The notes under the pieces are model-generated. The model was not told the origin of the DNA and ran no database searches. It saw only the letters and a program-made list of their open reading frames with translations. DNA of 64,000 nucleotides, from the IMG/VR virus record IMGVR_UViG_3300037258_000352, positions 1-64,000 of that record, one strand, 5' to 3'. The DNA comes from a virus. The translations under genes were made by a program, and so were the position numbers. How positions within the stretch are numbered: the first letter of the stretch is position 1; each line of letters opens with the position of its first letter. Below, one piece after another: positions 2,951 through 60,479 of this stretch.

Positions 2951-5722
2951 GTGGCTCTGTTTGACCGGTGGCGTCGCCAGTTCGTGGAAGACCTGACCCT
3001 CGACCAGGCCACGGACTACCTCGCGCGGGAACGGACCGCGTCGCTGCGGGTCCTCCGCGCGGACGGGCAACGCGTCGATTTGACCGCCCAAGACGCTGGG
3101 ACCCGCCTCGCGCTGGTCCGGCAGGAATGGCAAACCGACGCGTGGACCTACCGCGACATGATCGGCGAGTTGCGTTACGCGCAACGACTATTGGCCCGGT
3201 CGGTGGCCACCGTGCGGTTCTTCGCCGCTGAACTGCCCGAGGACTCCACCGAAGACCCCATCGAGCTGGCCGGCCCGGACTACAAAGGTGACCCGGCCCT
3301 CGCGAAGGACGCGGTCGAGAACCTCGCGCGGCTCCCCCTCGACGACGGCCCCGACGGGTTCCTCGCGACGATGACGGAGAACATCGAAACCGCGGGGGAA
3401 TGCTGGATCCACGGGCAGCAAGACGACGAGGACGGGGAGACGTGGTCGATCCGGTCGGTGTCGGAAATCATGGGCGCCGGCGACCAGGTGATGCTGCTGG
3501 AGTTGCCCACGATTTCCAGCTTGGGGCAACGCGCGATCAACCCGAAAACGGAGGAGCTGCTCCGCTGCTGGACGCGGCACCCGAGGTGGGGGAAGCTCGC
3601 GGACTCCCCGCTGCGCGCGATGCTCGACGTCCTCGAGGAAGTGGTGTTGACGGGCCGGGAGCAGCGGGCCGCTGCTAGGTCCCGGATCGCGGCGAACGGG
3701 GTCATGCTGGTCCCGAACTCGTTGGAGCTGCTCCAGTCCCGGGACACCGCTGAGGACTCCGACGCCCCGGAAGGGCTCGCGGACACCGATTTCATGCGGG
3801 ACTTCACCGAAGCGTTAACCGCCCCCATCCGCAATGAGGGGGACCCCGGTGCGGTCGCGCCCTTGATCCTCCGGGGTGAAGCGGAAGCGTTGAAAGAGGT
3901 CCGGCACCTCACCCTGACCCGGGACGACGCCGCGAAGCTGATGGACCGCCTCCAAGGCGCTGTCCTCCGAATGTTGCAGGGCCTCGACATCCAACCGGAG
4001 CAGGTCACGGGTATCGGGGCAACGAACCACTGGGGTGGGTGGCAGATCGAGGCCAGCAACATCCGTCACCAGGTCCTCCCCACTTGCGGGGTCGTCGCGG
4101 GGATGCTCACGAAAGCGTTTCTACGGCCAGCGTTGAAAGCACTGGGTTATCCACCGGAGAAGGTCCGCCGGATCGTGGTTTGGTACGACCCGACCGCGCT
4201 GGTCGAGTCCCCCGACCGGTCCCAAGACGCCCGGGACGCGTGGGACCGGGACGCGATCTCCAACGCCGCGCTGCGGGAAGCGTTGGGGTTCCCCGAGGAC
4301 GCCGTCCCCGAACCCCACGAGCATCTCGTCCGTCTGCTGTCCCGTGGCCGGTTGACACCGCAAGCGGTGCCGCTGGTCGCGGCCCTGTCGGGGGTGAAAC
4401 TCGACGACCCCGATTTGCAGGCCGCGCTCGCGATCGCGGTCGGGTTGGTCGCGCCCGCTCCACACGCGGGACCACCGACGGTGCAGGGGCAGGTGGTTCG
4501 GGCGTTACCTGCTGGTCAACCTGCACCCCCTGCAGCACCCGCAGGGTCGACCGCGACCCCAGCCGGGCCGGGGCAGGTCGTGCCCGAACAGACAGCTCCC
4601 ACCCCAACCGGCCCAGCGGCGCCACCTGCAGTCACCGCCGCTGGTGTCCCGGTCGAGGGGTGGCGGGTGGACATCGACACCGCGCGGCAACTCGCGCAGG
4701 TCGACGCGGTCCTCATGGACCGGATCCTCACCGCCGCTGACGCCGCGATCGTTCGCGCGGTGGAACGCGCCGGCGGTCGGGTCCGTAACGCCGCCCGGAA
4801 AACCCCGGCCCTAGTCGCGTCGATCGAGGGTGTTGAGGTCACCCTCATCGCGTCCGTTCTAGGTCGGGACACCGTCGGATCGTTCGCGTCAGTGTCGGAT
4901 CTCCTCGCCGGGGCCTACACCCGCCTGCGGGACCAGTTCGGTGGGTGGCTCGACCAAGCCGCCCGGTCCGCCGCGACCATCGTCGTGAAACTCTTGGGCC
5001 TGTCGACCAGCAGTCCCGCCGGCCGCGAAATCCGGGACCAGGTCATCACCAGGTACTCGGTGCACCGCGACGCCGCATGGTCGGCGCTGTCCGAGGCGTT
5101 GGACGCGGCCACCGACAAGGCCTTGTTCCGCGCGGATCCCTTAACCCCGGATCCGACACCGGGGGAAGCAGCGGACACACTCCTCTCCCCCGCCGCGGTC
5201 GCCCGCGCGCTCGTCATCGCCGGCGGTGGGACACCTGGGCAGCCGGGGGACTTCGGGTTCGGGACCGGTCCGGTCACTAGGCAGGCCATGACGCAGCAGG
5301 GTGGGGTGGTGTTGGGGTGGGAATGGCAGTACAACCCCGCGCAACCCCGTCGGTCCCATTTCCTGCCGCACCAAGTGTTGGATGGCGCCCGGTTCGGGAC
5401 GTGGACCGACCCGAAACTCGACACCACCCCCGGCAGTGAGTGGATCGGGTCCTACTTCCATCCCCAAGACCACGACGGGTGCTTGTGCTCGTCGACACCG
5501 GTCCTCGCGTTCCCCACCAACGACCCCGACGACATCGTCGGTCAGCGGATCCGCGCGGCGCAGCAATCCCACCGCGGGCGGGTCGCCGCCAAGGTCGCTG
5601 CGGAGGACACCGCCGCCGGTCGGATCGGAACGTCCATTCAGAACGAGGTCGAGACCCGTGATCGGATACTGGCCGGCGTGGAAGCTCTCCGCGCCCACTA
5701 CATCGAAGGGGTGTCAGTCTGA
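2951..5722 (+). CDS. Portal protein fused to a C-terminal MuF-like (head morphogenesis) domain
   Basis: N-terminal WQxDAWxYxDxIGELRY as in cluster-B-type actinophage portals; Pro/Ala linker; C-terminal WEW...H..LDG...HPQDHDGCLC MuF-like motif. Confidence 0.8.
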   Translation: MALFDRWRRQFVEDLTLDQATDYLARERTASLRVLRADGQRVDLTAQDAGTRLALVRQEWQTDAWTYRDMIGELRYAQRLLARSVATVRFFAAELPEDSTEDPIELAGPDYKGDPALAKDAVENLARLPLDDGPDGFLATMTENIETAGECWIHGQQDDEDGETWSIRSVSEIMGAGDQVMLLELPTISSLGQRAINPKTEELLRCWTRHPRWGKLADSPLRAMLDVLEEVVLTGREQRAAARSRIAANGVMLVPNSLELLQSRDTAEDSDAPEGLADTDFMRDFTEALTAPIRNEGDPGAVAPLILRGEAEALKEVRHLTLTRDDAAKLMDRLQGAVLRMLQGLDIQPEQVTGIGATNHWGGWQIEASNIRHQVLPTCGVVAGMLTKAFLRPALKALGYPPEKVRRIVVWYDPTALVESPDRSQDARDAWDRDAISNAALREALGFPEDAVPEPHEHLVRLLSRGRLTPQAVPLVAALSGVKLDDPDLQAALAIAVGLVAPAPHAGPPTVQGQVVRALPAGQPAPPAAPAGSTATPAGPGQVVPEQTAPTPTGPAAPPAVTAAGVPVEGWRVDIDTARQLAQVDAVLMDRILTAADAAIVRAVERAGGRVRNAARKTPALVASIEGVEVTLIASVLGRDTVGSFASVSDLLAGAYTRLRDQFGGWLDQAARSAATIVVKLLGLSTSSPAGREIRDQVITRYSVHRDAAWSALSEALDAATDKALFRADPLTPDPTPGEAADTLLSPAAVARALVIAGGGTPGQPGDFGFGTGPVTRQAMTQQGGVVLGWEWQYNPAQPRRSHFLPHQVLDGARFGTWTDPKLDTTPGSEWIGSYFHPQDHDGCLCSSTPVLAFPTNDPDDIVGQRIRAAQQSHRGRVAAKVAAEDTAAGRIGTSIQNEVETRDRILAGVEALRAHYIEGVSV

Positions 5723-6574: not shown

Positions 6575-6831
6575 CACAGTGCGTACTTAGTGTCGACTGC
6601 GAACTCGGGCTGCATGCGGCAGATGAGCACCCTTGCGGCCAACACAGCGAACCACCAGGAACGCCATGCCGATATTGTGAGGACCCCGTCCCGATGGACG
6701 GATCCTCGTGCCCGAAATGTTGGACACCGATCACGATCCCCTTAGCGAAGGCTCTGTTCGCGCCTTACGGGATCTCGGTTGATCCATGGCCTAACGATCG
6801 CCTTGATGAGAGTACCGGAGGTACCCGGTGA
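6571..6831 (+). CDS. Small Cys/His-rich (Zn-binding) protein
   Basis: CRYC...CPKC; GTGA overlaps on both sides. Confidence 0.65.
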   Translation: MTQCVLSVDCELGLHAADEHPCGQHSEPPGTPCRYCEDPVPMDGSSCPKCWTPITIPLAKALFAPYGISVDPWPNDRLDESTGGTR

Positions 6832-9338
6832 CAGCACCAGCAGTTGATCAACCCGTGGAAACCGACGGGGAAGACACCGGCGGATATACCGGCGGGATGA
6901 TCGCCCTCATCCCGTCCGTCGGCGACGCGCAGCAACTCGCCGTCGCCGGTGGCGACGACCCAGACGAAATGCACCTCACCCTGATCTACCTCGGGGACGA
7001 CCTGTCGGACTGGGACGACGCGCAACGCGCGCAGGTTATGGCCGCCGCGCAGCAAACCGCCGCGACCATGAGCCCGGTGCAGGCCCGCGCGTTTGGGCAC
7101 GCCCAGTTCAATCCCGACGGTGGTGACGACGGCTCCCGGGACCCGTGCGCGGTCTATCTGATCGGGGACACCGACCAGCTCGGGCCCGCGCGAGACGCCC
7201 TCGCGAGCACCACCGACCAGGACCAGCACACCCCGTTCGTCCCCCACGTGACCGCTGGGACCGGGGTGAACGCGAGTGACCTCTCGTACACCGGGCCGGT
7301 CACGTTCGACCGGATGCGCGTCGCCATGGGTGACGACACCACCGACATACCACTAGGGGGCGACAGTTCCGTGACCGCTGCAGCACCGACCGCCGTCGAT
7401 GTCGGTTCGCCGGCGACGATCCTGTCCGACACCGGTGACCAGATCACCGTCCACTGGGACGCGCTCGCGGTGGAAGGCCTCGACACCGGAGACGGCCGGT
7501 ATTTGACTCCCGGTGGTGGGTCGACGAGGACACCACCGCTGTCTCTTCTCGCGTTGCCCTACGCGAACCACGGTGGGCAAGACGCCCCCGCTGCGGAGGT
7601 GTTCGGGGAGATCACCACCTTGACCCGCCGGCCCGGCCCGGAGGTCACCAGCAAACGCACCGGGGAACCGTTCCCTGATGGGACGTTCGTGTGGTCCGCG
7701 GACGCCACCATCGACGGCACCCACAAGTTCGCGGACATGGTCCGGAAAGGACACCTGCGGGGTGGGTCTGTTGACCTCGCGGACCTCGACGCTGAGTTGA
7801 TCGACGAAGACACCGCCGCTATGAGCGACAACCCGCGTCGGCGCGCTGTCCTCACCCGGTATGAGATCGCCGCCGCGACGATGGTCCCGGTCCCCGCGTT
7901 CGCCGACGCCTACTGCGACGTCGTCGGCTCCCTCCCCGCGGCGCTGGCCGCGTCCGCGCTGCCCACCGAGCTGTGGAAGGAGCCCGTCCCGATGTGGCGG
8001 TCCAGTGAGGTCGGGGACCTCGTCGCTCGCACCCCGGGGGGCAGCGTCAAAGCCAGCGCCCGGGACAAGGCCGCAGCGAAGGGCCACGCCCTGCCCGACG
8101 GGTCGCTGCCCATCGAAACCGCTGATGACCTCACTAACGCGATCAAACGCGCCGGGTCGGCGAAGGACCCCGTCAAGGCCCGCAAGTTCGTCATGGCCCA
8201 AGCGAAGCGCCTCAAACTGGCCGACAAGATCCCCGACAATTGGAACGCGGACGGCACCACCGGTGACGACGCTGTCACCGCAGCAGCGGTGACCCGACGG
8301 CCTCCCCTGTCGTGGTTCACCGATCCCAGCCTCAACGGGGAAACCCCGATCACCATCACCGACGACGGGCACGTCTACGGGCACGTCGCGGTGTGGTCCC
8401 GGCCCCACATCGGGTTCAACGGGCAACGGATCTACGCCAAGCCGTCCCGCGCGGACTATGCGTTTTTCAACACCGGCGCGGTCCGGTGCCTCGACGAGGA
8501 CGGGACCACGAGGATCGCCGCGGTTGGGCACCTCACCATGGGCACCGGCCACGCCGACCTCCAAGCCTCGTACACCGCAGCGGCACGGCATTACGACCAC
8601 ACCGGGTACGCGTGGGCTGACGTCGCCGCCGGCGACGACAAGTGGGGGGTGTGGGTCAACGGGATACTCAAGCCGGGGATCACCGAGGAGCAAATCAGTT
8701 ACGCCTACGCGCACCCACCATCAGGGGATTGGCGTCCCATAGACGGCGGGTTGGAAATGGTCGCGGCGTTGTGCGTGAACACCCCCGGGATCCCCGTGTC
8801 GAGGGCTCGGGTCGCGTCCGGTGAAGTCGTCGCGTTGGTAGCCGCTGGCGCGCTGGCCCCTGCACCTCCACAGGGTGGGATCGGTGCGATGGTGGATTAC
8901 GACCAGCTCGCTGATCGGGTCGCGGACCGGATCCTGACCCGGCAGCAGCACACCGCTGAGCTGGCCGCGCGCCGAACCGCGGCACTAGCGGCTACCGACG
9001 ACACCACCGAACGGATGGCCGCCGCACTCGCCGCGATCCCCGATGACGACGACGAAGTGTCGACCTTCGAGGCGGTCCGCGCTGACACCCTCGCGTCATT
9101 CCTAGCGGGGAAGGAGATAACCCCGAAAGACGCGGAGAACACGGCCCGCCTCAAGGAATACTGGACGCATGGGAAAGGAGCCGCGCTAATACGCTGGGGT
9201 GAGCCATCAGATTTCGACAGGTGTCGGACACATTTAGCTAAATACGTTCCACCTGGGGGAACCCTAGATGGCCTATGTGCAAACATGCACCATGACGCAC
9301 TAGGTGTTTGGCCGGGGAAGGAACATGGCAAGAAGTAG
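6828..9338 (+). CDS. Multidomain protein: N-terminal 2H phosphoesterase (2'-5' RNA ligase/Acb1-like) plus prohead protease-like region and extra domains
   Basis: Two HxT motifs (MHLTLIYLG, FVPHVTAG); EGxxTGDGR...H...GGSVD...AATMVPVPAF protease-like core; ALPDGSLPI helical module; position between portal and capsid genes. Confidence 0.8.
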   Translation: MTAPAVDQPVETDGEDTGGYTGGMIALIPSVGDAQQLAVAGGDDPDEMHLTLIYLGDDLSDWDDAQRAQVMAAAQQTAATMSPVQARAFGHAQFNPDGGDDGSRDPCAVYLIGDTDQLGPARDALASTTDQDQHTPFVPHVTAGTGVNASDLSYTGPVTFDRMRVAMGDDTTDIPLGGDSSVTAAAPTAVDVGSPATILSDTGDQITVHWDALAVEGLDTGDGRYLTPGGGSTRTPPLSLLALPYANHGGQDAPAAEVFGEITTLTRRPGPEVTSKRTGEPFPDGTFVWSADATIDGTHKFADMVRKGHLRGGSVDLADLDAELIDEDTAAMSDNPRRRAVLTRYEIAAATMVPVPAFADAYCDVVGSLPAALAASALPTELWKEPVPMWRSSEVGDLVARTPGGSVKASARDKAAAKGHALPDGSLPIETADDLTNAIKRAGSAKDPVKARKFVMAQAKRLKLADKIPDNWNADGTTGDDAVTAAAVTRRPPLSWFTDPSLNGETPITITDDGHVYGHVAVWSRPHIGFNGQRIYAKPSRADYAFFNTGAVRCLDEDGTTRIAAVGHLTMGTGHADLQASYTAAARHYDHTGYAWADVAAGDDKWGVWVNGILKPGITEEQISYAYAHPPSGDWRPIDGGLEMVAALCVNTPGIPVSRARVASGEVVALVAAGALAPAPPQGGIGAMVDYDQLADRVADRILTRQQHTAELAARRTAALAATDDTTERMAAALAAIPDDDDEVSTFEAVRADTLASFLAGKEITPKDAENTARLKEYWTHGKGAALIRWGEPSDFDRCRTHLAKYVPPGGTLDGLCANMHHDALGVWPGKEHGKK

Positions 9339-9356
9339 CACACCGTGACCGGATGG

Positions 9357-9533
9357 TAGGATCTCACCAGAGATAAAGCCCCTGGCCGTGGTTGCTGCCA
9401 CTACCAGGGGCACAACGCCGAACCTGAGGATTGGTATGTAGATCCGTCAACTGGTGTCCGTCGTTGCCGGGGGTGCTGGAAGGTCAGCTATCGAGCCGCC
9501 GGGCTCGCGTACCGGTCGCGTCAGGCTGGCTGA
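9357..9533 (+). pseudogene. Relic of an HNH homing endonuclease cassette
   Basis: TAGGAT -10 and CCCCTGG..CCAGGGGC leader hairpin like that before the 33257 HNH, then a start-less frame WYVDPSTGVRRCRGC resembling the RxCxxC tails of the 21478 HNH. Confidence 0.5.
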
Positions 9534-9603
9534 CGGATTGGTGACCGGTCCGCTCTTTTCCCTGGTAGAGGAGGATCCGGACCGGCCGCCAGCAGTGTAG
9601 GCG

Positions 9604-9733
9604 GTACTGTGGTCGGGTCGCACAGGTCGCGGGTTCAAATCCCGTCACCCTGCCCGGTGATCCGGGATGGTGTAGCGCAGCTCGGTAGCGCGGTGCGCGC
9701 GTGGGTACCTTCACCCGCTCGGGGGCCACGTGC
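9604..9733 (+). ncRNA. Circularly permuted tRNA-like RNA (YrlA/Y-RNA-like)
   Basis: T-arm GCGGG-TTCAAAT-CCCGT (9629-9645) lies 5' of D-arm GCGC-AGCTCGGTA-GCGC (9675-9691); acceptor-like stem closed by a TGAT loop; CGCAC 9619-23 pairs with GTGCG 9693-97; ends uncertain. Confidence 0.8.
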
Positions 9734-9745
9734 ATATGGGCGGGG

Positions 9746-10252
9746 CTAATCCCGGTCAGGTCCGAACTGGCCGGGACGCGCCCGACCGACCCACACGTCG
9801 ATGACCTGCTGCAGGTCGTCCCGCAAGTTCGCTGCGCTGTCCGGGACGGTCGGGGTGTACGTCGTCGTGAACCCCGACAGGTCGGGGCTGCTGCACGTTG
9901 ACCCGTCGGCCATGTGACGACCGATCCGCGCGTCGCCCATCTGGTGGGCAGCTTCTGGGCAGTTCTCGCAGCACAGTTCGCCGGGCGGTTCACAGTTCCG
10001 GCCGTGGTAGAAGCAACCGCACCCGTCCTTGACTCGGGCGACGACGAAACTCTCGTCTGGGTTGTTCGGGTCCCGGGTGATCGTCACCAGCAGGTCGGGG
10101 GTCGTGATCCGGATCGAGTGCCCACCACCGGGATACCCAGCGTCGGCGTTGTACGGGATCGGTCCGGTGATCGGGACACCGTCGCGGGTGAGTAGCCACG
10201 TCCCCCCGGCGACGTCCCCGATGATCTGGTACTCAGGGGTCACGTCGGTCAT
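9746..10252 (-). CDS. Cys-rich hypothetical protein
   Basis: RBS GAAAGGA before ATG 10252; CGC..C..CCxxC cluster. Confidence 0.7.
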   Translation of the reverse strand: MTDVTPEYQIIGDVAGGTWLLTRDGVPITGPIPYNADAGYPGGGHSIRITTPDLLVTITRDPNNPDESFVVARVKDGCGCFYHGRNCEPPGELCCENCPEAAHQMGDARIGRHMADGSTCSSPDLSGFTTTYTPTVPDSAANLRDDLQQVIDVWVGRARPGQFGPDRD

Positions 10253-10680: not shown

Positions 10681-10800
10681 TGGAGCTGGCCGGGTGAGGG
10701 GATTTGAACCCCTGCGTCTGATGAGTTGCCCCCCATCAACGAACTTGAGCCTGTGAAGGCTCCCCGCTTCCGTTTGGCCGCTCCGGCACACCCGGCCAGC
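10681..10800 (-). ncRNA. Oversized tRNA-like RNA (120 nt) with 12-bp acceptor stem and encoded CCA
   Basis: GCTGGCCGGGTG/CACCCGGCCAGC + T + CCA; D-arm CCG-GAGCGGCCAAA-CGG; T-arm AGGGG-TTCAAAT-CCCCT; 7-bp variable arm; extended non-canonical anticodon arm; TACGCT -10 at 10807-10812. Confidence 0.8.
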
Positions 10801-11003
10801 GGGACGAGCGTAACCGGCAATCGCGTTTCCGTTACCACCGTCACTGACCGTGAGCCTAGGTTGATCGAATCGTAGGGGCACCGCCCCCAGGGTCACCGCG
10901 CTTAGCGCACCGATCCCCGGGCCGCTGGTGGTTCTTGGCCTAGCCGACACCCCTTAATCACACTCTCGTGTTTTCGTGTGCGCCCGGAAAGGCCCCCACT
11001 CAG

Positions 11004-13151
11004 ATGACAATTGAGCAGCTCAGAGAGCTGATCGAGCGCCTGCAGGCGGACGCCACGCAGGTCACCAGCGACGAACTCGCCCAGGCCCGGTCTTTCATCC
11101 GGGACCAGCGTAAGCACCTCGCGGAGCAACCCGCGTCGGATGACGTGATTACCGGGTTGGAGGAGCTCGGTACGTCTTTCAAGACGGTCAAGGGTGTGCA
11201 GGAGACCCGTTCTGCTGACGCCGCGAAGTTGGAGGAGACCCGCAGGGGTCTACTCGCGGACCTCGACGACGACGAGCCCCCCGCTGCTGCTGGTGCTGAG
11301 GGTGACGCGCCTACCGGTGACGCGCCGGCGGACACCCCACCGGTGGAGCCGACTGGTGACGACACCGGCCAGACCGCCCCGGAGATCCCCACGCAGGGCG
11401 CCCCTGCCGACGCTCCGGCCCCCACCGCGGACGCTGGTACCCAGGTTGATGCGCCCCTCGCGGTCGCTGCTGGTGGCGGCAACGTCCCAGCCCGCCGGGC
11501 CCCGATCGGTACGTTCCGCACCGGTGGCGGCAACACCCCGACCCAACGGCCAGCGGCGATGATCCAAACCGCGACGACCGCTGCCGGTGGAGCCCCCGGG
11601 TTCGTGCAGGGCCAGAAGATCAGCAGCACCGCTGAGCTTGCGCTCGCGGTCACCGCGCAGCTCCGCGCGATGTCCTCCGGTCGCGGTGGCACCGGGGAAA
11701 AGGTGTACGTCGCGAACACCGCGATCACCTACCCGGAGGAGCGGCAGCTCCGGTCGAAGGACTGGGTTGGGAACTTCAGCAAGATCGAAGCGGTCACCGG
11801 GGAGCAGGCCCTGGTGGCTGCTGGTGGGTTGTGCGCGCCACCTCAGACTCTGTACGACGTGCAGGTCATCGGGTCGGTGCGCCGGCCGATCCGGGACGCG
11901 CTCGCCCGGTTCCAGGTCGACCGTGGTGCGATCCAGTTCCGGCCCAACAGCTCGGCCGCGACCGCGTTGACCACCGGCACCGGTACTGGTGTCGACACGT
12001 GGACCGTGGAGCAGGACGCCTCAAGCTCGGGGGACACCAAGGGTTGTTATGTGGTGGACTGCCCGTCGCTGCAGGAAGCTGAGATCCAGGCCATTTACCT
12101 GTGCTTGGAGTTCAGCAACGTCACCGCCCGCTTCGACCCGGAGACCACCGCAGCCAACATTCAGCAGGGCATGATCGCCCACGCTCGGCGCGCGGAGAAC
12201 GAACTCCTCCGGCAACTGCAGCTCGGGTCGAAGGTCTTGTCCGGTGCGCAGGTCGTCGGTGCGTCCCGCGACATCCTCGTCTATTTGGACAAGGCCGTCG
12301 CCTACTACCGCAACCGGCACCGCATCGACACCACCGTCACCCTCACGTTGCTGCTGCCCGCGTGGGTGCTGTACGAGATGCGGTCGGACCTGGCCCGTCA
12401 GATGGCTGCGGGGGACTGGGCCTCAGCCTTGTCGGTGTCCGACGCGATGATCATGGCGTGGTTCGGTGAGCGGGGCGTCAACGCCGTCTTCCATTTAGAC
12501 GGTGGCATCGGTGGCGTCAACGAGGTCCAAACCCTCACCGTGACCGGTACCCCCACCGGCGGTAGCTACACGTTGACGTTCAACGGGCAAACCACCGGCG
12601 CGATCCCGTACAACGCTGCAGTAGCGGACGTGCGGACCGCGTTGGAGGCCCTGTCGAACATCCAATTCGGGTCCGTCGCCGTCGCTGGTGGACCACACCC
12701 GGGGACCGCGATCACCGTCGCGTTCGGTGGTGACTACGCCGAGACCGACGTCCCGCAGATGACGGCCACCGGCTCGTTCACCGGTGGCTCCTCACCGGCG
12801 ATCGCGGTGACCACCACGACCACATCGTCTCTGACCAGCGTCGTCAACGGGGTGTCCATCGCGTCGCAGGTGTACGCCAACGCCGCCGCCGGGGCCGCGA
12901 TCCCGAACTACCCAGCGCAGATCGATGCGCTGCTGTTCGTGACCGGCACCAAGCTGTTCCTCGACGGCGGGAACCTCGACCTCGGGCTCGTCCGGGACTC
13001 CTCACTGAACTCCAGGAACCGTTACCGGCAGTTCTCCGAGACGTTTGAGGGCGTCGCTGACCGCGGTATCGAGAACCTGCGGCTCGTCCTGTCCGTCGTG
13101 CCCAACGGTTCCACCGTCGGCACGGTCAGCCCGTCCAGCGTCACTTCCTAA
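11004..13151 (+). CDS. Major capsid (hexamer-type) protein with N-terminal scaffold-like region and an inserted beta domain
   Basis: Coiled-coil/acidic N-terminus, ALVAAGGLCAPxxTLYD motif, LDLGLVRDSxLNxxNxYxxFxETFE C-terminus typical of cluster-B-like capsids; RBS GGAAAGG. Confidence 0.85.
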   Translation: MTIEQLRELIERLQADATQVTSDELAQARSFIRDQRKHLAEQPASDDVITGLEELGTSFKTVKGVQETRSADAAKLEETRRGLLADLDDDEPPAAAGAEGDAPTGDAPADTPPVEPTGDDTGQTAPEIPTQGAPADAPAPTADAGTQVDAPLAVAAGGGNVPARRAPIGTFRTGGGNTPTQRPAAMIQTATTAAGGAPGFVQGQKISSTAELALAVTAQLRAMSSGRGGTGEKVYVANTAITYPEERQLRSKDWVGNFSKIEAVTGEQALVAAGGLCAPPQTLYDVQVIGSVRRPIRDALARFQVDRGAIQFRPNSSAATALTTGTGTGVDTWTVEQDASSSGDTKGCYVVDCPSLQEAEIQAIYLCLEFSNVTARFDPETTAANIQQGMIAHARRAENELLRQLQLGSKVLSGAQVVGASRDILVYLDKAVAYYRNRHRIDTTVTLTLLLPAWVLYEMRSDLARQMAAGDWASALSVSDAMIMAWFGERGVNAVFHLDGGIGGVNEVQTLTVTGTPTGGSYTLTFNGQTTGAIPYNAAVADVRTALEALSNIQFGSVAVAGGPHPGTAITVAFGGDYAETDVPQMTATGSFTGGSSPAIAVTTTTTSSLTSVVNGVSIASQVYANAAAGAAIPNYPAQIDALLFVTGTKLFLDGGNLDLGLVRDSSLNSRNRYRQFSETFEGVADRGIENLRLVLSVVPNGSTVGTVSPSSVTS

Positions 13152-59393: not shown

Positions 59394-60479
59394 ATGAGCC
59401 GTAGACGGCATTTCGTGGGGACGGTCCCCTGCCCCCACCCGGAGGAAGGCCTACAAACCGTCCTGCGGGGCTCCGACGACATCACCAGCATGAGCGACAC
59501 CGAAAGCACCGACGGGCGCGCCGACTGGATCATCCCGATCCTCCAAGCCCGTACCCAACACGCCAACATCGTCGCGCTTAAGGGCCTGCACTACTACGAC
59601 CGGGACACGTTCCACCTGTGGAACACGTGCGTGTGTATGCGCCGGCCGCGGCGGGACCTCACCTACTCGGCTATGGCGCTGCCGTACGCGCGGCACGCTG
59701 AGGCGTGGTTCCCCACCTTCGAGCGGGTCACCGCCGCCCTCGGGCTCGGTGACGTCCTCTATCAGGTCGACGTCGCCGCACCGTTCACGATGGCCGCGTT
59801 CACGTGGGGTCCCGGGGTGTTCGCGCATTACGACGACGAGGTCGCCGCCGCGGTCAAACAGATCGAGCAGGTCCTCCGGATCACCGGTGGGCGGGTCGTG
59901 TTCCAAATCAGCGCGCCCGTCGAAACGGTCCTGACCGCGTGGGCCCCGACAGCGGTCCGGGAAATGCAAGCCGAGGTGATGGCCGACCGGATCGTGGGTC
60001 TCGCTGCCGCGTCCCCGGCGGGGACCGAGTTCATCGTCCACGAGTGCGTGGGCCGACCGAGGGGGAAACCGGTGACAGTGTTGAAGGACCTCGGTCCGGT
60101 CGCGGACCTCACCTCGGCGATCGTCCGTCGGTGGCCAGCGGGGCGGGTCCTCAACGCGATCCACCTACCCATCGGGGACGTCACCCACCCAGCGCCGCTG
60201 GACCCGAACTATTACGCCCCGCTGCGGTGGCGGAACGTCCCCGCCCGGGTGGCTCTGATCGCGGGTCTAGCGAACCTCCACGTGCAGGACTCCCAGCAGC
60301 GCAGCGCGTTGCGGATCGCGGAGCTCGCCGCCGGCCGCGAGTTGGGGGTGTCCACCCCGTGCGGGTTGGGTGGTGATGAGGACCTGCTGGCCTCGATGAT
60401 CCGCCGGACCCGGGACCTCGCCGTGATGCCGACCACGGTCGGGTCGTGGGACACGCTGATCGGTGACCGTGATGAGTGA
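59394..60479 (+). CDS. MetE/UROD-superfamily TIM-barrel protein
   Basis: HFVGTVP N-terminus, VHEC and TPCGLG candidate Zn ligands. Confidence 0.65.
   Translation: MSRRRHFVGTVPCPHPEEGLQTVLRGSDDITSMSDTESTDGRADWIIPILQARTQHANIVALKGLHYYDRDTFHLWNTCVCMRRPRRDLTYSAMALPYARHAEAWFPTFERVTAALGLGDVLYQVDVAAPFTMAAFTWGPGVFAHYDDEVAAAVKQIEQVLRITGGRVVFQISAPVETVLTAWAPTAVREMQAEVMADRIVGLAAASPAGTEFIVHECVGRPRGKPVTVLKDLGPVADLTSAIVRRWPAGRVLNAIHLPIGDVTHPAPLDPNYYAPLRWRNVPARVALIAGLANLHVQDSQQRSALRIAELAAGRELGVSTPCGLGGDEDLLASMIRRTRDLAVMPTTVGSWDTLIGDRDE

What the first reader, a model, noticed from the sequence alone, without database searches (positions are those of the whole stretch)
9604..9733. Circularly permuted tRNA mimic (T arm before D arm, capped acceptor stem) with no Ro60 gene in the window
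Seen: CGCAC-AGGTC-[T arm with TTCAAAT]-CACC..CCCGG(TGAT)CCGGG..GGTG-TA-[D arm GCGC/AGCTCGGTA/GCGC]-G-GTGCG. All tRNA elbow landmarks are present but permuted, the acceptor end is closed and there is no anticodon loop. Known: this is the topology of bacterial YrlA Y RNAs, which partner Ro60/Rsr and have been reported in some mycobacteriophages. Two models: a longer Y RNA closed by GTAC(T)GTGGTC/GGCCACGTGC (9604-9614/9724-9733), or a minimal RNA starting near 9617 from TACTGT (9605-9610), i.e. a stand-alone elbow decoy lacking the Ro-binding stem. Inference: decoy for tRNA-targeting defence toxins or a hijacker of host Ro60/PNPase.
Basis: partly seen in the sequence, partly recalled or inferred. 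Interest (0 to 1): 0.82.

Follow-up and report, generated by a model that had tools for sequence, protein, structure and literature searches.

The report
Partner-less inside-out proline tRNA mimic
A 104-kb phage of high-GC bacteria carries a small element with every part of a proline tRNA in rotated order, its amino-acid end sealed and its anticodon loop missing; it has the layout of bacterial Y RNAs but is not one of them, and the phage has no gene for their usual partner protein.

Summary
Window 9619-9697 (+) reads closing stem, variable loop, T arm, capped acceptor arm, U8-A9, D arm, closing stem. Rfam's YrlA model matches its tRNA-like core only (32.4 bits, E 1.5e-6 per genome). Rotated back in silico, ARAGORN calls it tRNA-Pro, and the nearest real tRNAs are all tRNA-Pro.

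It is not a YrlA-family member. A profile built from 28 Ro60-associated phage elements scores unseen family members at 57-97 bits and this element at 30-40, the range of tandem-tRNA junctions. It lacks the V arm, the terminal handle and the family's invariant D stem. The complete phage genome encodes neither Ro60 (TROVE) nor DUF2828; 21 of 23 near-complete phage genomes with family-type RNAs encode one.

Only three viral contigs hold it. In one it directly follows two tRNA-Ser genes and its acceptor is shortened to 5 bp with a UUCG cap. A close relative (capsid 98% identical) lacks it.

Best reading: an accessory small-RNA gene for a bare tRNA core that binds a factor recognising tRNA shape. 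Function is inferred and no transcript data were available. The scan has noted many permuted tRNA mimics in other phages; this one has no handle and no partner gene.

The parts
9534..9561 (+). Terminator-like hairpin plus CTCTTTTCCC that closes the portal/protease operon upstream of the element
   Evidence: The T-rich tract is kept in L150, L003 and L130.
9605..9610 (+). Candidate -10 hexamer TACTGT (TANNNT), 6 nt before the first conserved base
   Evidence: The same column holds TATTGT in L003 and TATCGT in L130. T, A and the final T are invariant in a diverging flank. The sigma-70 consensus scan found nothing, so this is inference.
9617..9623 (+). Predicted 5' end (G9617) and 5' strand of the closing stem, CGCAC (anticodon-stem 3' strand of the tRNA). 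GUCGCA resembles the Ro motif GNCGAA in 5 of 6 positions.
   Evidence: Sharp start of conservation in A2/A5. Motif from PMC4201824.
9624..9628 (+). Variable loop AGGTC (A44 to C48; C48 can form the Levitt pair with G15)
9629..9645 (+). T arm GCGGG / TTCAAAT / CCCGT
   Evidence: The G.U pair becomes A-U in L130.
9646..9672 (+). Closed acceptor arm: CACC/GGTG, a 3x2 internal loop, and CCCGG/CCGGG capped by TGAT. In L130 it is replaced by CGCCC-UUCG-GGGUG.
9673..9692 (+). U8-A9, D arm GCGC / AGCTCGGTA / GCGC, and G26
9693..9697 (+). 3' strand of the closing stem, GTGCG (anticodon-stem 5' strand of the tRNA)
   Evidence: 5 of 5 pairs in all three copies
9698..9745 (+). Near-invariant 3' tail with two overlapping hairpins (9701-9718, and 9714-9721 with 9737-9744). 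It is a possible terminator shared with the convergent gene.
9604..9614 (+). Not favoured, because it overlaps the -10-like hexamer.
   Evidence: 10 pairs, 2 one-sided compatible changes, 3 broken cells, no compensatory change
9746..10252 (-). Convergent 168-aa Cys-rich orphan gene. The last 45 codons and the RNA element are present or absent together.
   Evidence: L150 lacks both.
9588..9885 (.). Accessory cassette (RNA element plus the C-terminal extension of the ORF). It is missing from close relative L150.

Best explanation
Window 9617 to about 9745 (+) is an accessory small-RNA gene of a lytic-type actinophage. Its product is a circularly permuted tRNA-Pro body. The RNA ends lie where the anticodon loop would be. 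The acceptor end is sealed by a hairpin. The D-loop/T-loop elbow and all core tertiary positions are intact.

Shown: the anatomy, its tRNA-Pro ancestry, structure-neutral variation among three copies, its absence from a close relative, its position right after real tRNA genes in one relative, and the absence of any Ro60-type gene in the complete genome.

Inferred: it is transcribed from its own TANNNT promoter about 7 nt upstream, or together with tRNAs in L130. It folds into a tRNA L-shape that can be neither aminoacylated nor decoded. It acts by occupying a host or phage factor that recognises tRNA shape, without a phage-encoded ring protein. Candidate factors are a core-modifying or processing enzyme, the unknown effector of host YrlA, or a tRNA-sensing defence protein.
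For: Anatomy and significance. tRNA-Pro origin: the 15 best of 1535 ARAGORN-called tRNAs are all tRNA-Pro, with a class mean score of 28.0 against 21.5 or less for other isotypes.

Variation: all stems of the core are 100% paired in three copies. The two stem substitutions are G.U to A-U and A-U to G.U, and the three window-versus-L003 substitutions lie in loops. That indel also breaks every reading frame across the element on both strands.

Transcription unit: a terminator-like site lies upstream. A TANNNT hexamer is kept at fixed spacing in three copies, and the same layout (TACGCT, 6 nt, first paired base) precedes the second tRNA-like element at 10685-10804. In L130 two tRNA-Ser genes sit 15 nt upstream on the same strand. 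Core plus tail is 96% identical against 73-78% for the 5' flank (p about 0.001).

No partner gene: TROVE, DUF2828, RtcB and the CCA-enzyme head domain are all absent from the 100%-complete genome. Of 23 near-complete phage genomes with family-type RNAs, 21 encode TROVE or DUF2828.
Against: Only three near-identical copies exist, so no compensatory change could occur. The core is not significantly more conserved than the adjacent ORF (p 0.17 and 0.61), so recent spread of the whole cassette explains the conservation equally well. MFE and RNAalifold do not recover the cloverleaf. The consensus promoter scan found nothing. A close relative does without the element. No binding partner is identified.
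Confidence: 0.5

Rival explanations
1. It is a compact Y RNA that works with the host's own Ro60 (Rsr). GUCGCA at the extreme 5' end would serve as the Ro-binding motif and the tRNA-like core as the effector-binding module, redirecting or blocking the host Rsr/PNPase machine.
For: The topology is the same as the YrlA effector domain. GUCGCA (9617-9622) matches GNCGAA in 5 of 6 positions, is invariant in three copies, and sits at the base of the closing stem as in Ro60-associated phage elements; some of those read GCGCAGG, with C at the same position. Ro60 mainly contacts the 5' strand (PMC4201824). Gordonia and Mycobacterium, hosts of the nearest phages, have Rsr/YrlA. The nearest cultured relative, GMA2, encodes its own Ro60 plus a family-type RNA.
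Against: With the favoured start site there is no terminal helix formed by the 5' and 3' ends. The element scores 30-40 bits against the Ro60-associated profile, where members score 57-97. It lacks the V arm, the GGUUAYUUC motif and the invariant GCUC/GAGC D stem. The host is unknown.
Confidence: 0.15
2. It is a non-functional relic: the junction left when two tandem tRNA-Pro genes (or a duplicated one) lost their outer halves. It persists only because the cassette is young.
For: Both halves are tRNA-Pro-like. The window copy still reads CACCCTG-C-CCG where tRNA-Pro has CACCCCG-A-CCA, followed by a 6-nt spacer and a CGGG..GTG 5' strand. It scores like tandem-tRNA junctions. It is no more conserved than the neighbouring ORF. 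It is dispensable in L150. The family is narrow, with 3 contigs.
Against: Both truncations would have to fall exactly at the ends of the 5-bp anticodon stem. All five point changes are structure-neutral. The 13-nt indel yields a perfect UUCG-capped stem, converging on the design of functional phage mimics. A -10-like hexamer is kept at fixed spacing. Conservation drops sharply just 5' of the core.
Confidence: 0.2
3. The structure serves neighbouring messages rather than being a gene of its own. It could be a 3' protective cap on read-through plus-strand transcripts. Or, as its complement, it could be part of the terminator/3' UTR of the convergent minus-strand operon.
For: It lies between convergent genes, 13 nt from the stop of the minus-strand ORF. 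GC-rich hairpins at 9701-9744 could terminate in both directions. The element and the ORF's C-terminal extension are gained or lost together.
Against: The tRNA-specific loop sequences (TTCAAAT, AGCTCGGTA) and the G.U pairs make sense only on the plus strand. A terminator-like site already precedes it on the plus strand. The hairpins nearer the stop codon are sufficient for termination.
Confidence: 0.1
4. It is a recombination site derived from a tRNA gene: an attP core or the scar of an integrative element.
For: Integrases often use tRNA 3' halves, and the element borders a presence/absence cassette.
Against: There is no tyrosine or serine recombinase in the complete genome. The site lies in the head-gene module. 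An attP core does not explain a following 5' half that pairs with it.
Confidence: 0.02

Closest known systems
YrlA Y RNAs of bacteria and mycobacteriophages (Rfam RF02553; Chen et al. 2014, PMC4201824; Wang et al. 2018, bioRxiv 10.1101/312249)
   Same: The same permuted order (variable loop, T arm, closed acceptor-like stem, D arm) and the same tRNA tertiary positions (U8-A14, G15-C48, G18/G19 with the T loop). It has no free CCA end and no anticodon. The Rfam model aligns its core positions 23-85.
   Different: There is no Ro60 or DUF2828 gene in the genome, no V arm, and no terminal handle or helix. The D stem is GCGC/GCGC, not GCUC/GAGC. It scores 30-40 bits against a phage-family profile where members score 57-97. 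It derives from tRNA-Pro. It lies in a head-gene module, not beside rsr or in an RNA-repair operon.
Mycobacterium smegmatis YrlA (7-bp acceptor stem, cut by RNase P, CCA added; PMC4201824)
   Same: It comes from an actinobacterial setting, and its acceptor arm could in principle mimic a pre-tRNA.
   Different: The acceptor here is 4 bp, an internal loop and 5 bp in the window, or 5 bp plus UUCG in L130. It is not a 7-bp stem, so RNase P cleavage is not expected. This was not tested.
Gordonia phage GMA2 Ro60 locus (NC_070761.1, about 60.2-62.6 kb)
   Same: GMA2 is the nearest cultured relative by the protease/MuF protein. It also carries a UUCG-capped permuted tRNA mimic.
   Different: The GMA2 RNA is a family-type element (84 bits with R1). 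It sits next to a TROVE protein (Orf59), a tmRNA and a tRNA array. The window phage has none of these except one tRNA-Gly.
Junctions of tandem tRNA genes (the known false positive of YrlA searches, PMC4201824)
   Same: A T arm is followed by a D arm, and profile scores are similar.
   Different: No complete tRNA lies on either side. The two acceptor strands pair with each other and are capped. The two anticodon-stem strands pair with each other.
Permuted tRNA genes of algae, and two-piece (permuted) tmRNA
   Same: The gene order is 3' half before 5' half.
   Different: Those are processed into working tRNA or tmRNA with an open CCA end and an anticodon loop or tag frame. This element has neither. 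The Rfam models for tmRNA and permuted tmRNA gave only an 18-nt T-arm match.

Membership tests
YrlA (RF02553; Chen et al. 2014) | tRNA-like domain in permuted order: T arm, closed acceptor-like stem, D arm, with the tRNA tertiary positions | tested here: met
   cmscan 32.4 bits over model positions 23-85. ARAGORN calls the un-permuted sequence a tRNA.
YrlA (RF02553; Chen et al. 2014) | Reaches Rfam's gathering score (69 bits) | tested here: not met
   32.4 bits (none). This is a weak criterion here: Ro60-adjacent phage elements also score only 36-51 bits.
YrlA (RF02553; Chen et al. 2014) | Encoded within about 4 kb of a Ro60 (TROVE) gene | tested here: not met
   No TROVE match in the 100%-complete 104-kb genome and no DUF2828. 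The search works on GMA2 and on 28 of 50 other contigs.
YrlA (RF02553; Chen et al. 2014) | 5' motif GNCGAA(N)G thought to contact Ro60 | tested here: inconclusive
   GUCGCA at 9617-9622 matches 5 of 6 positions and is invariant in 3 copies. The variant GCGCAGG is seen in other phage elements.
YrlA (RF02553; Chen et al. 2014) | Stem formed by pairing of the 5' and 3' ends | tested here: inconclusive
   The proposed 9604-9614 / 9724-9733 stem has 86.7% of cells paired, 3 broken cells and no compensatory change. It overlaps the conserved -10-like hexamer. It is not consistently predicted.
Phage YrlA-type family as profiled here (R1, from 28 TROVE-associated elements) | Full-length match to the sequence-and-structure profile (V arm with GGUUAYUUC, handle, invariant D stem GCUC/GAGC) | tested here: not met
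   Window 30.3 bits, L003 30.1 and L130 39.8, against 57-97 bits for 24 elements not used in the model and 20-37 for tandem tRNAs. D stem GCGC/GCGC against 28 of 28 GCUC/GAGC.
YrlA (RF02553; Chen et al. 2014) | Binds Ro60/Rsr; carries tRNA modifications (pseudouridine 55, dihydrouridine) | not testable with these tools
   Needs gel shift or immunoprecipitation and modification mapping.
Canonical tRNA (RF00005 / ARAGORN) | Colinear cloverleaf with an open acceptor end and a 7-nt anticodon loop | tested here: not met
   ARAGORN finds none in the window. There is no RF00005 match in 9400-9900 at E up to 10. The acceptor is capped and there is no anticodon loop.
Two-headed tRNA-mimic RNA with DUF7873 (a class known only from this scan's earlier notes) | An RNA of about 360-400 nt with two permuted modules directly after a gene of about 245 aa (DUF7873) | tested here: not met
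   There is a single module. No Pfam family was found on any neighbour within about 4 kb. DUF7873 was not searched genome-wide, because its accession was not known to me.
Phage attP in a tRNA gene | Integrase gene in the genome, adjacent to the tRNA-derived core | tested here: not met
   No PF00589 or PF00239 match in the complete genome.

The most novel reading that the evidence does not exclude
Phages can deploy a bare tRNA core as a free-standing RNA effector: no anticodon, no acceptor end, no Y-RNA handle and no ring-protein partner. It is made by permuting a proline tRNA. It titrates a host factor that reads tRNA shape, for example the effector arm of the host Rsr/YrlA machine, a tRNA-sensing defence protein or a processing enzyme. 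It travels as a roughly 300-bp accessory cassette between related phages.
Probability: 0.25. Interest if true: 0.7.

Novelty: new variant of a known kind. Interest (0 to 1): 0.5.

Why it matters
Permuted tRNA mimics in bacteria and phages have been understood as the RNA half of Ro60-type particles. In the survey here, 21 of 23 near-complete phage genomes with such RNAs do encode a TROVE or DUF2828 protein.

This element keeps only the tRNA core, comes from a different tRNA (proline), and sits in a complete genome with no such protein. If it is expressed, the tRNA-shaped module has a job of its own. That is the open question about why Y RNAs mimic tRNA at all (Chen 2014; Wang 2018).

Nature also supplies controls. 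A close relative lacks the cassette. One copy has a shortened UUCG-capped arm. One copy is joined to real tRNA genes.

Tried and rejected
- Single-sequence folding, RNAalifold on three copies and constrained folds did not recover the cloverleaf and gave no consistent flank structure. They are uninformative, as is usual for D arms.
- blastn of 9300-10100 against 50,697 phage records found no match.
- Pattern scans of metagenome and genome collections returned only tandem tRNA-Thr/tRNA-Pro genes of Bacteroidota.
- The first loose viral pattern returned mostly tandem tRNAs.
- The convergent 168-aa ORF is an orphan with no Pfam or PHROG family, only itself and the L003 homologue in 5.8 billion proteins, no Atlas hit, and an AlphaFold model at pLDDT 38. 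No fold search was attempted.
- Protein-coding readings of the element (46-aa plus-strand ORF 9609-9749; 169-aa minus-strand ORF 9484-9993) are rejected, because the 13-nt indel in L130 shifts every frame.
- The attP reading is rejected: there is no recombinase.
- My interim idea was that many phages carry 'orphan' YrlA-type RNAs. It was largely withdrawn after earlier scan notes pointed to DUF2828: 5 of the 7 TROVE-negative complete genomes encode it.
- A shared CCUUCAC heptamer in hairpin loops of the two tRNA-like elements is expected by chance, by my own estimate.

Full report
**Setting.** The window is the first 64 kb of a 104,286-bp IMG/VR virus record with terminal repeats, rated 100% complete, at about 66% G+C. 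The element lies in the head module:
- portal gene, 2951-5722;
- a fusion of a 2H-phosphoesterase domain with a MuF/maturation-protease region, 6828-9338;
- a terminator-like hairpin with a T-rich tail, 9534-9561;
- the element itself;
- a convergent orphan gene, 9746-10252;
- the major head gene, 10968-13151.

By the protease protein the nearest cultured phage is Gordonia phage GMA2 (103 kb). More than a thousand weaker matches come from phages of Mycobacterium, Gordonia and Microbacterium.

**The observation.** Read as a tRNA, the order is:
- anticodon-stem 3' strand (CGCAC);
- variable loop (AGGTC);
- T arm;
- acceptor 3' strand;
- a capping hairpin;
- acceptor 5' strand;
- U8-A9;
- D arm;
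- G26;
- anticodon-stem 5' strand (GTGCG).

ARAGORN sees no tRNA anywhere in the window, and no Rfam family reaches its gathering score. With permissive thresholds the YrlA model aligns its positions 23-85 to 9621-9695 at 32.4 bits, with E 3e-5 locally and 1.5e-6 for the genome. I joined the 5' half, a 7-nt test loop and the 3' half in a script. ARAGORN then drew a canonical cloverleaf for both the window copy and the L130 copy. The class mean score is 28.0, against 21.5 or less for any other isotype. The element is therefore a circularly permuted tRNA-Pro body without an anticodon loop.

**Relatives.** Gene-based and pattern-based scans of IMG/VR found the element in only two other contigs: L003 (also fetched as L055, L129 and L151) and L130 (also L152).
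- *Other collections.* Metagenome and genome scans returned only tandem tRNA genes. The cultured-phage collection has nothing similar.
- *L003.* The window copy differs from it at three positions, all in loops.
- *L130.* One T-stem G.U pair becomes A-U and one acceptor A-U pair becomes G.U. A 13-nt deletion replaces the distal hairpin with a 5-bp stem closed by C(UUCG)G. All five core helices are 100% paired in all three copies. No pair changes on both sides, which cannot be expected at 96-97% identity. The 13-nt indel also rules out a protein-coding constraint on either strand.
- *Position in L130.* The element starts 15 nt after two tRNA-Ser genes on the same strand.
- *L150.* This contig has a head protein 98% identical to the window's. 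The stretch equivalent to about 9588-9885 is missing: the RNA element and the last 45 codons of the convergent gene are absent, and no YrlA-like match exists anywhere in that 44-kb contig.

The element is thus an accessory cassette.

**Where the RNA starts.** Conservation begins abruptly. The 41 nt before the core are 73-78% identical, while core plus tail are 96% identical (p about 0.001). The core is not significantly more conserved than the adjacent ORF (p 0.17 and 0.61). Within the diverging flank, the T, A and final T of a TANNNT hexamer are invariant. The hexamer reads TACTGT, TATTGT or TATCGT, always 6 nt before GUCGCAC. The second tRNA-like element of the island, on the minus strand, has the same layout: TACGCT, 6 nt, then the first paired base.

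The competing outer stem (9604-9614 with 9724-9733) keeps 86.7% of cells paired, has three broken cells and has no compensatory change. Its invariant columns are the same ones the promoter reading explains. The consensus sigma-70 scan found no promoter, so the start site remains an inference that RACE would settle. The 3' tail (9698-9745) is nearly invariant and can form two overlapping GC-rich hairpins next to the stop codon of the convergent gene.

**Is it a Y RNA?** Chen et al. (PMC4201824) define YrlA by four things: closeness to Ro60, a 5' GNCGAA motif, a stem formed by the RNA ends, and the T/acceptor/D domain, often with a V stem-loop.

To get a comparison set I scanned IMG/VR for a T arm followed by a UUCG-capped stem and a D arm.
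Ninety of the hits have a perfect 5-7-bp capped stem.
- Of the first 50 contigs, 28 encode a TROVE protein.
- Earlier notes of this scan suggested DUF2828 as an alternative ring protein. It is present in 9 of the 21 TROVE-negative contigs tested, and in 5 of the 7 that are at least 90% complete.
- Together, 21 of 23 near-complete genomes with such an RNA encode a ring protein.
- These elements score only 36-51 bits against Rfam's YrlA model. A score below the gathering threshold is therefore normal for phage members and does not exclude membership by itself.

An alignment of the 28 TROVE-associated elements shows rich compensatory variation in the T and acceptor stems: 10 of 16 pairs change on both sides. 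It also shows an invariant D stem GCUC/GAGC, a GGUUAYUUC motif in a V arm, and a GNCG(A/U)AG handle.

A covariance model built from that alignment (R1) gave these scores:

| Target | R1 score (bits) |
|---|---|
| Elements of the TROVE-negative contigs, not used in the model | 57-97 |
| GMA2 element | 84 |
| Window copy | 30.3 |
| L003 copy | 30.1 |
| L130 copy | 39.8 |
| Tandem-tRNA junctions | 20-37 |

The window element has no V arm, its D stem is GCGC/GCGC, and its genome has neither TROVE nor DUF2828. The genome also lacks RtcB and the CCA-enzyme head domain. By contrast, GMA2 carries an unannotated canonical locus: a TROVE protein (Orf59), a tmRNA, a family-type RNA and a tRNA array.

One feature remains open. 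GUCGCA at the predicted 5' end matches GNCGAA in five of six positions and is invariant. Recruitment of a host Rsr therefore cannot be excluded. I conclude that the element works like the effector domain of a Y RNA in shape but is not a member of the family.

**Mechanism.**
- *Shown:* the anatomy, the ancestry, the structure-neutral variation, the accessory status, the link to tRNA genes in one relative, and the lack of a partner gene.
- *Inferred:* it is transcribed as an RNA of about 80-130 nt that folds into a tRNA L-shape whose only accessible tRNA features are the elbow and core.

The acceptor arm varies in length (5 bp with UUCG, against 4 bp plus an internal loop plus 5 bp) while the core is constant. 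This points to the core as the working part, as Wang et al. argued for YrlA. A decoy for anticodon nucleases is unlikely because there is no anticodon loop. RNase P cleavage as in M. smegmatis YrlA is unlikely without a 7-bp acceptor stem. I put 0.5 on an independent tRNA-core mimic RNA acting without a phage ring protein. The rivals are:
- a compact Y RNA using host Rsr, 0.15;
- a young relic of tandem tRNA-Pro genes, 0.2;
- a structure serving neighbouring transcripts, 0.1;
- a recombination site, 0.02, since no recombinase is encoded.

**Novelty and weight.** Permuted tRNA mimics are known, and this scan has noted many in phages. Four things are new here:
- a handle-less, V-arm-less version derived from tRNA-Pro;
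- a complete genome with no ring-protein gene;
- a location in the head module;
- a natural cassette-minus relative.

Against this stand the very narrow distribution (three metagenomic contigs), the absence of any expression data, and conservation that cannot separate selection from recency. I rate it a new variant of a known kind, interest 0.5.

Noticed in passing
window 10685-10804 (-): A second tRNA-like element lies at the other end of the 1.2-kb island. It has a 12-bp acceptor stem ending in UCCA, a class-II-type D arm, a long variable arm and a canonical T arm. Its anticodon region is interrupted by a hairpin with a 6-nt loop. ARAGORN calls it (tRNA-Leu-like, 14-nt insert) only with relaxed settings. 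TACGCT sits 6 nt upstream. L150 keeps it with two stem-breaking changes, and L003 has no T-loop motif in that interval.
   Followed up: partly
L139 (Gordonia phage GMA2, NC_070761.1 about 59.9-62.6 kb): Several features are unannotated in the record. Orf59 is a TROVE/Ro60 protein. A tmRNA scores 94.6 bits. A YrlA-type RNA lies at 60255-60364 (43 bits with Rfam, 84 bits with R1). A Pistol ribozyme match scores 56.8 bits against a gathering score of 34.5. All lie at the head of the tRNA array.
   Followed up: partly
IMG/VR loci L153-L269: UUCG-capped permuted tRNA mimics are common in viral contigs: 90 of the first 120 pattern hits. Of 23 near-complete genomes, 16 encode TROVE and 5 more encode DUF2828. 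The TROVE-negative ones are AT-rich, carry an ACAGCAA-type 5' motif and sit in tRNA arrays, yet they score 57-97 bits with a model built only from TROVE-associated elements.
   Followed up: partly
L190 (G031, 64.6 kb, 100% complete) and L160 (G009, 117.5 kb, 93% complete): Two genomes carry full family-type RNAs (90 and 95 bits with R1) but have neither a TROVE nor a DUF2828 match. They are candidates for true partner-less Y-type RNAs or for a third kind of ring protein.
   Followed up: no
window 6828-9338 (+): The head-maturation protease/MuF-type protein carries an N-terminal 2H-phosphoesterase ('2'-5' RNA ligase') domain: Pfam PF13563 at 23.6 bits (below the 27 cut-off) and PHROG 2659 'RNA ligase' at E 1e-37. 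Homologues in Gordonia phages are annotated as RNA ligase. An RNA-end-processing domain on a virion protein next to tRNA-like RNAs may or may not be a coincidence.
   Followed up: no
L130 436-700 (-): In this relative two tRNA-Ser genes (GCU and UGA anticodons) with their own TATACT hexamer are inserted between the conserved CGGACCGGCC block and the element. The tRNA mimic thereby becomes the last member of a three-gene tRNA-type unit.
   Followed up: partly
window 9746-10252 (-) and L150 2517-2915 (-): The orphan Cys-rich protein has the motif GCGC..HGRNCEPP..LCC..CPEA.HQ.GDA. Its 45-aa C-terminal extension is present only where the RNA element is present. It has no family, no homologues beyond these phages, and only a low-confidence fold.
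   Followed up: partly
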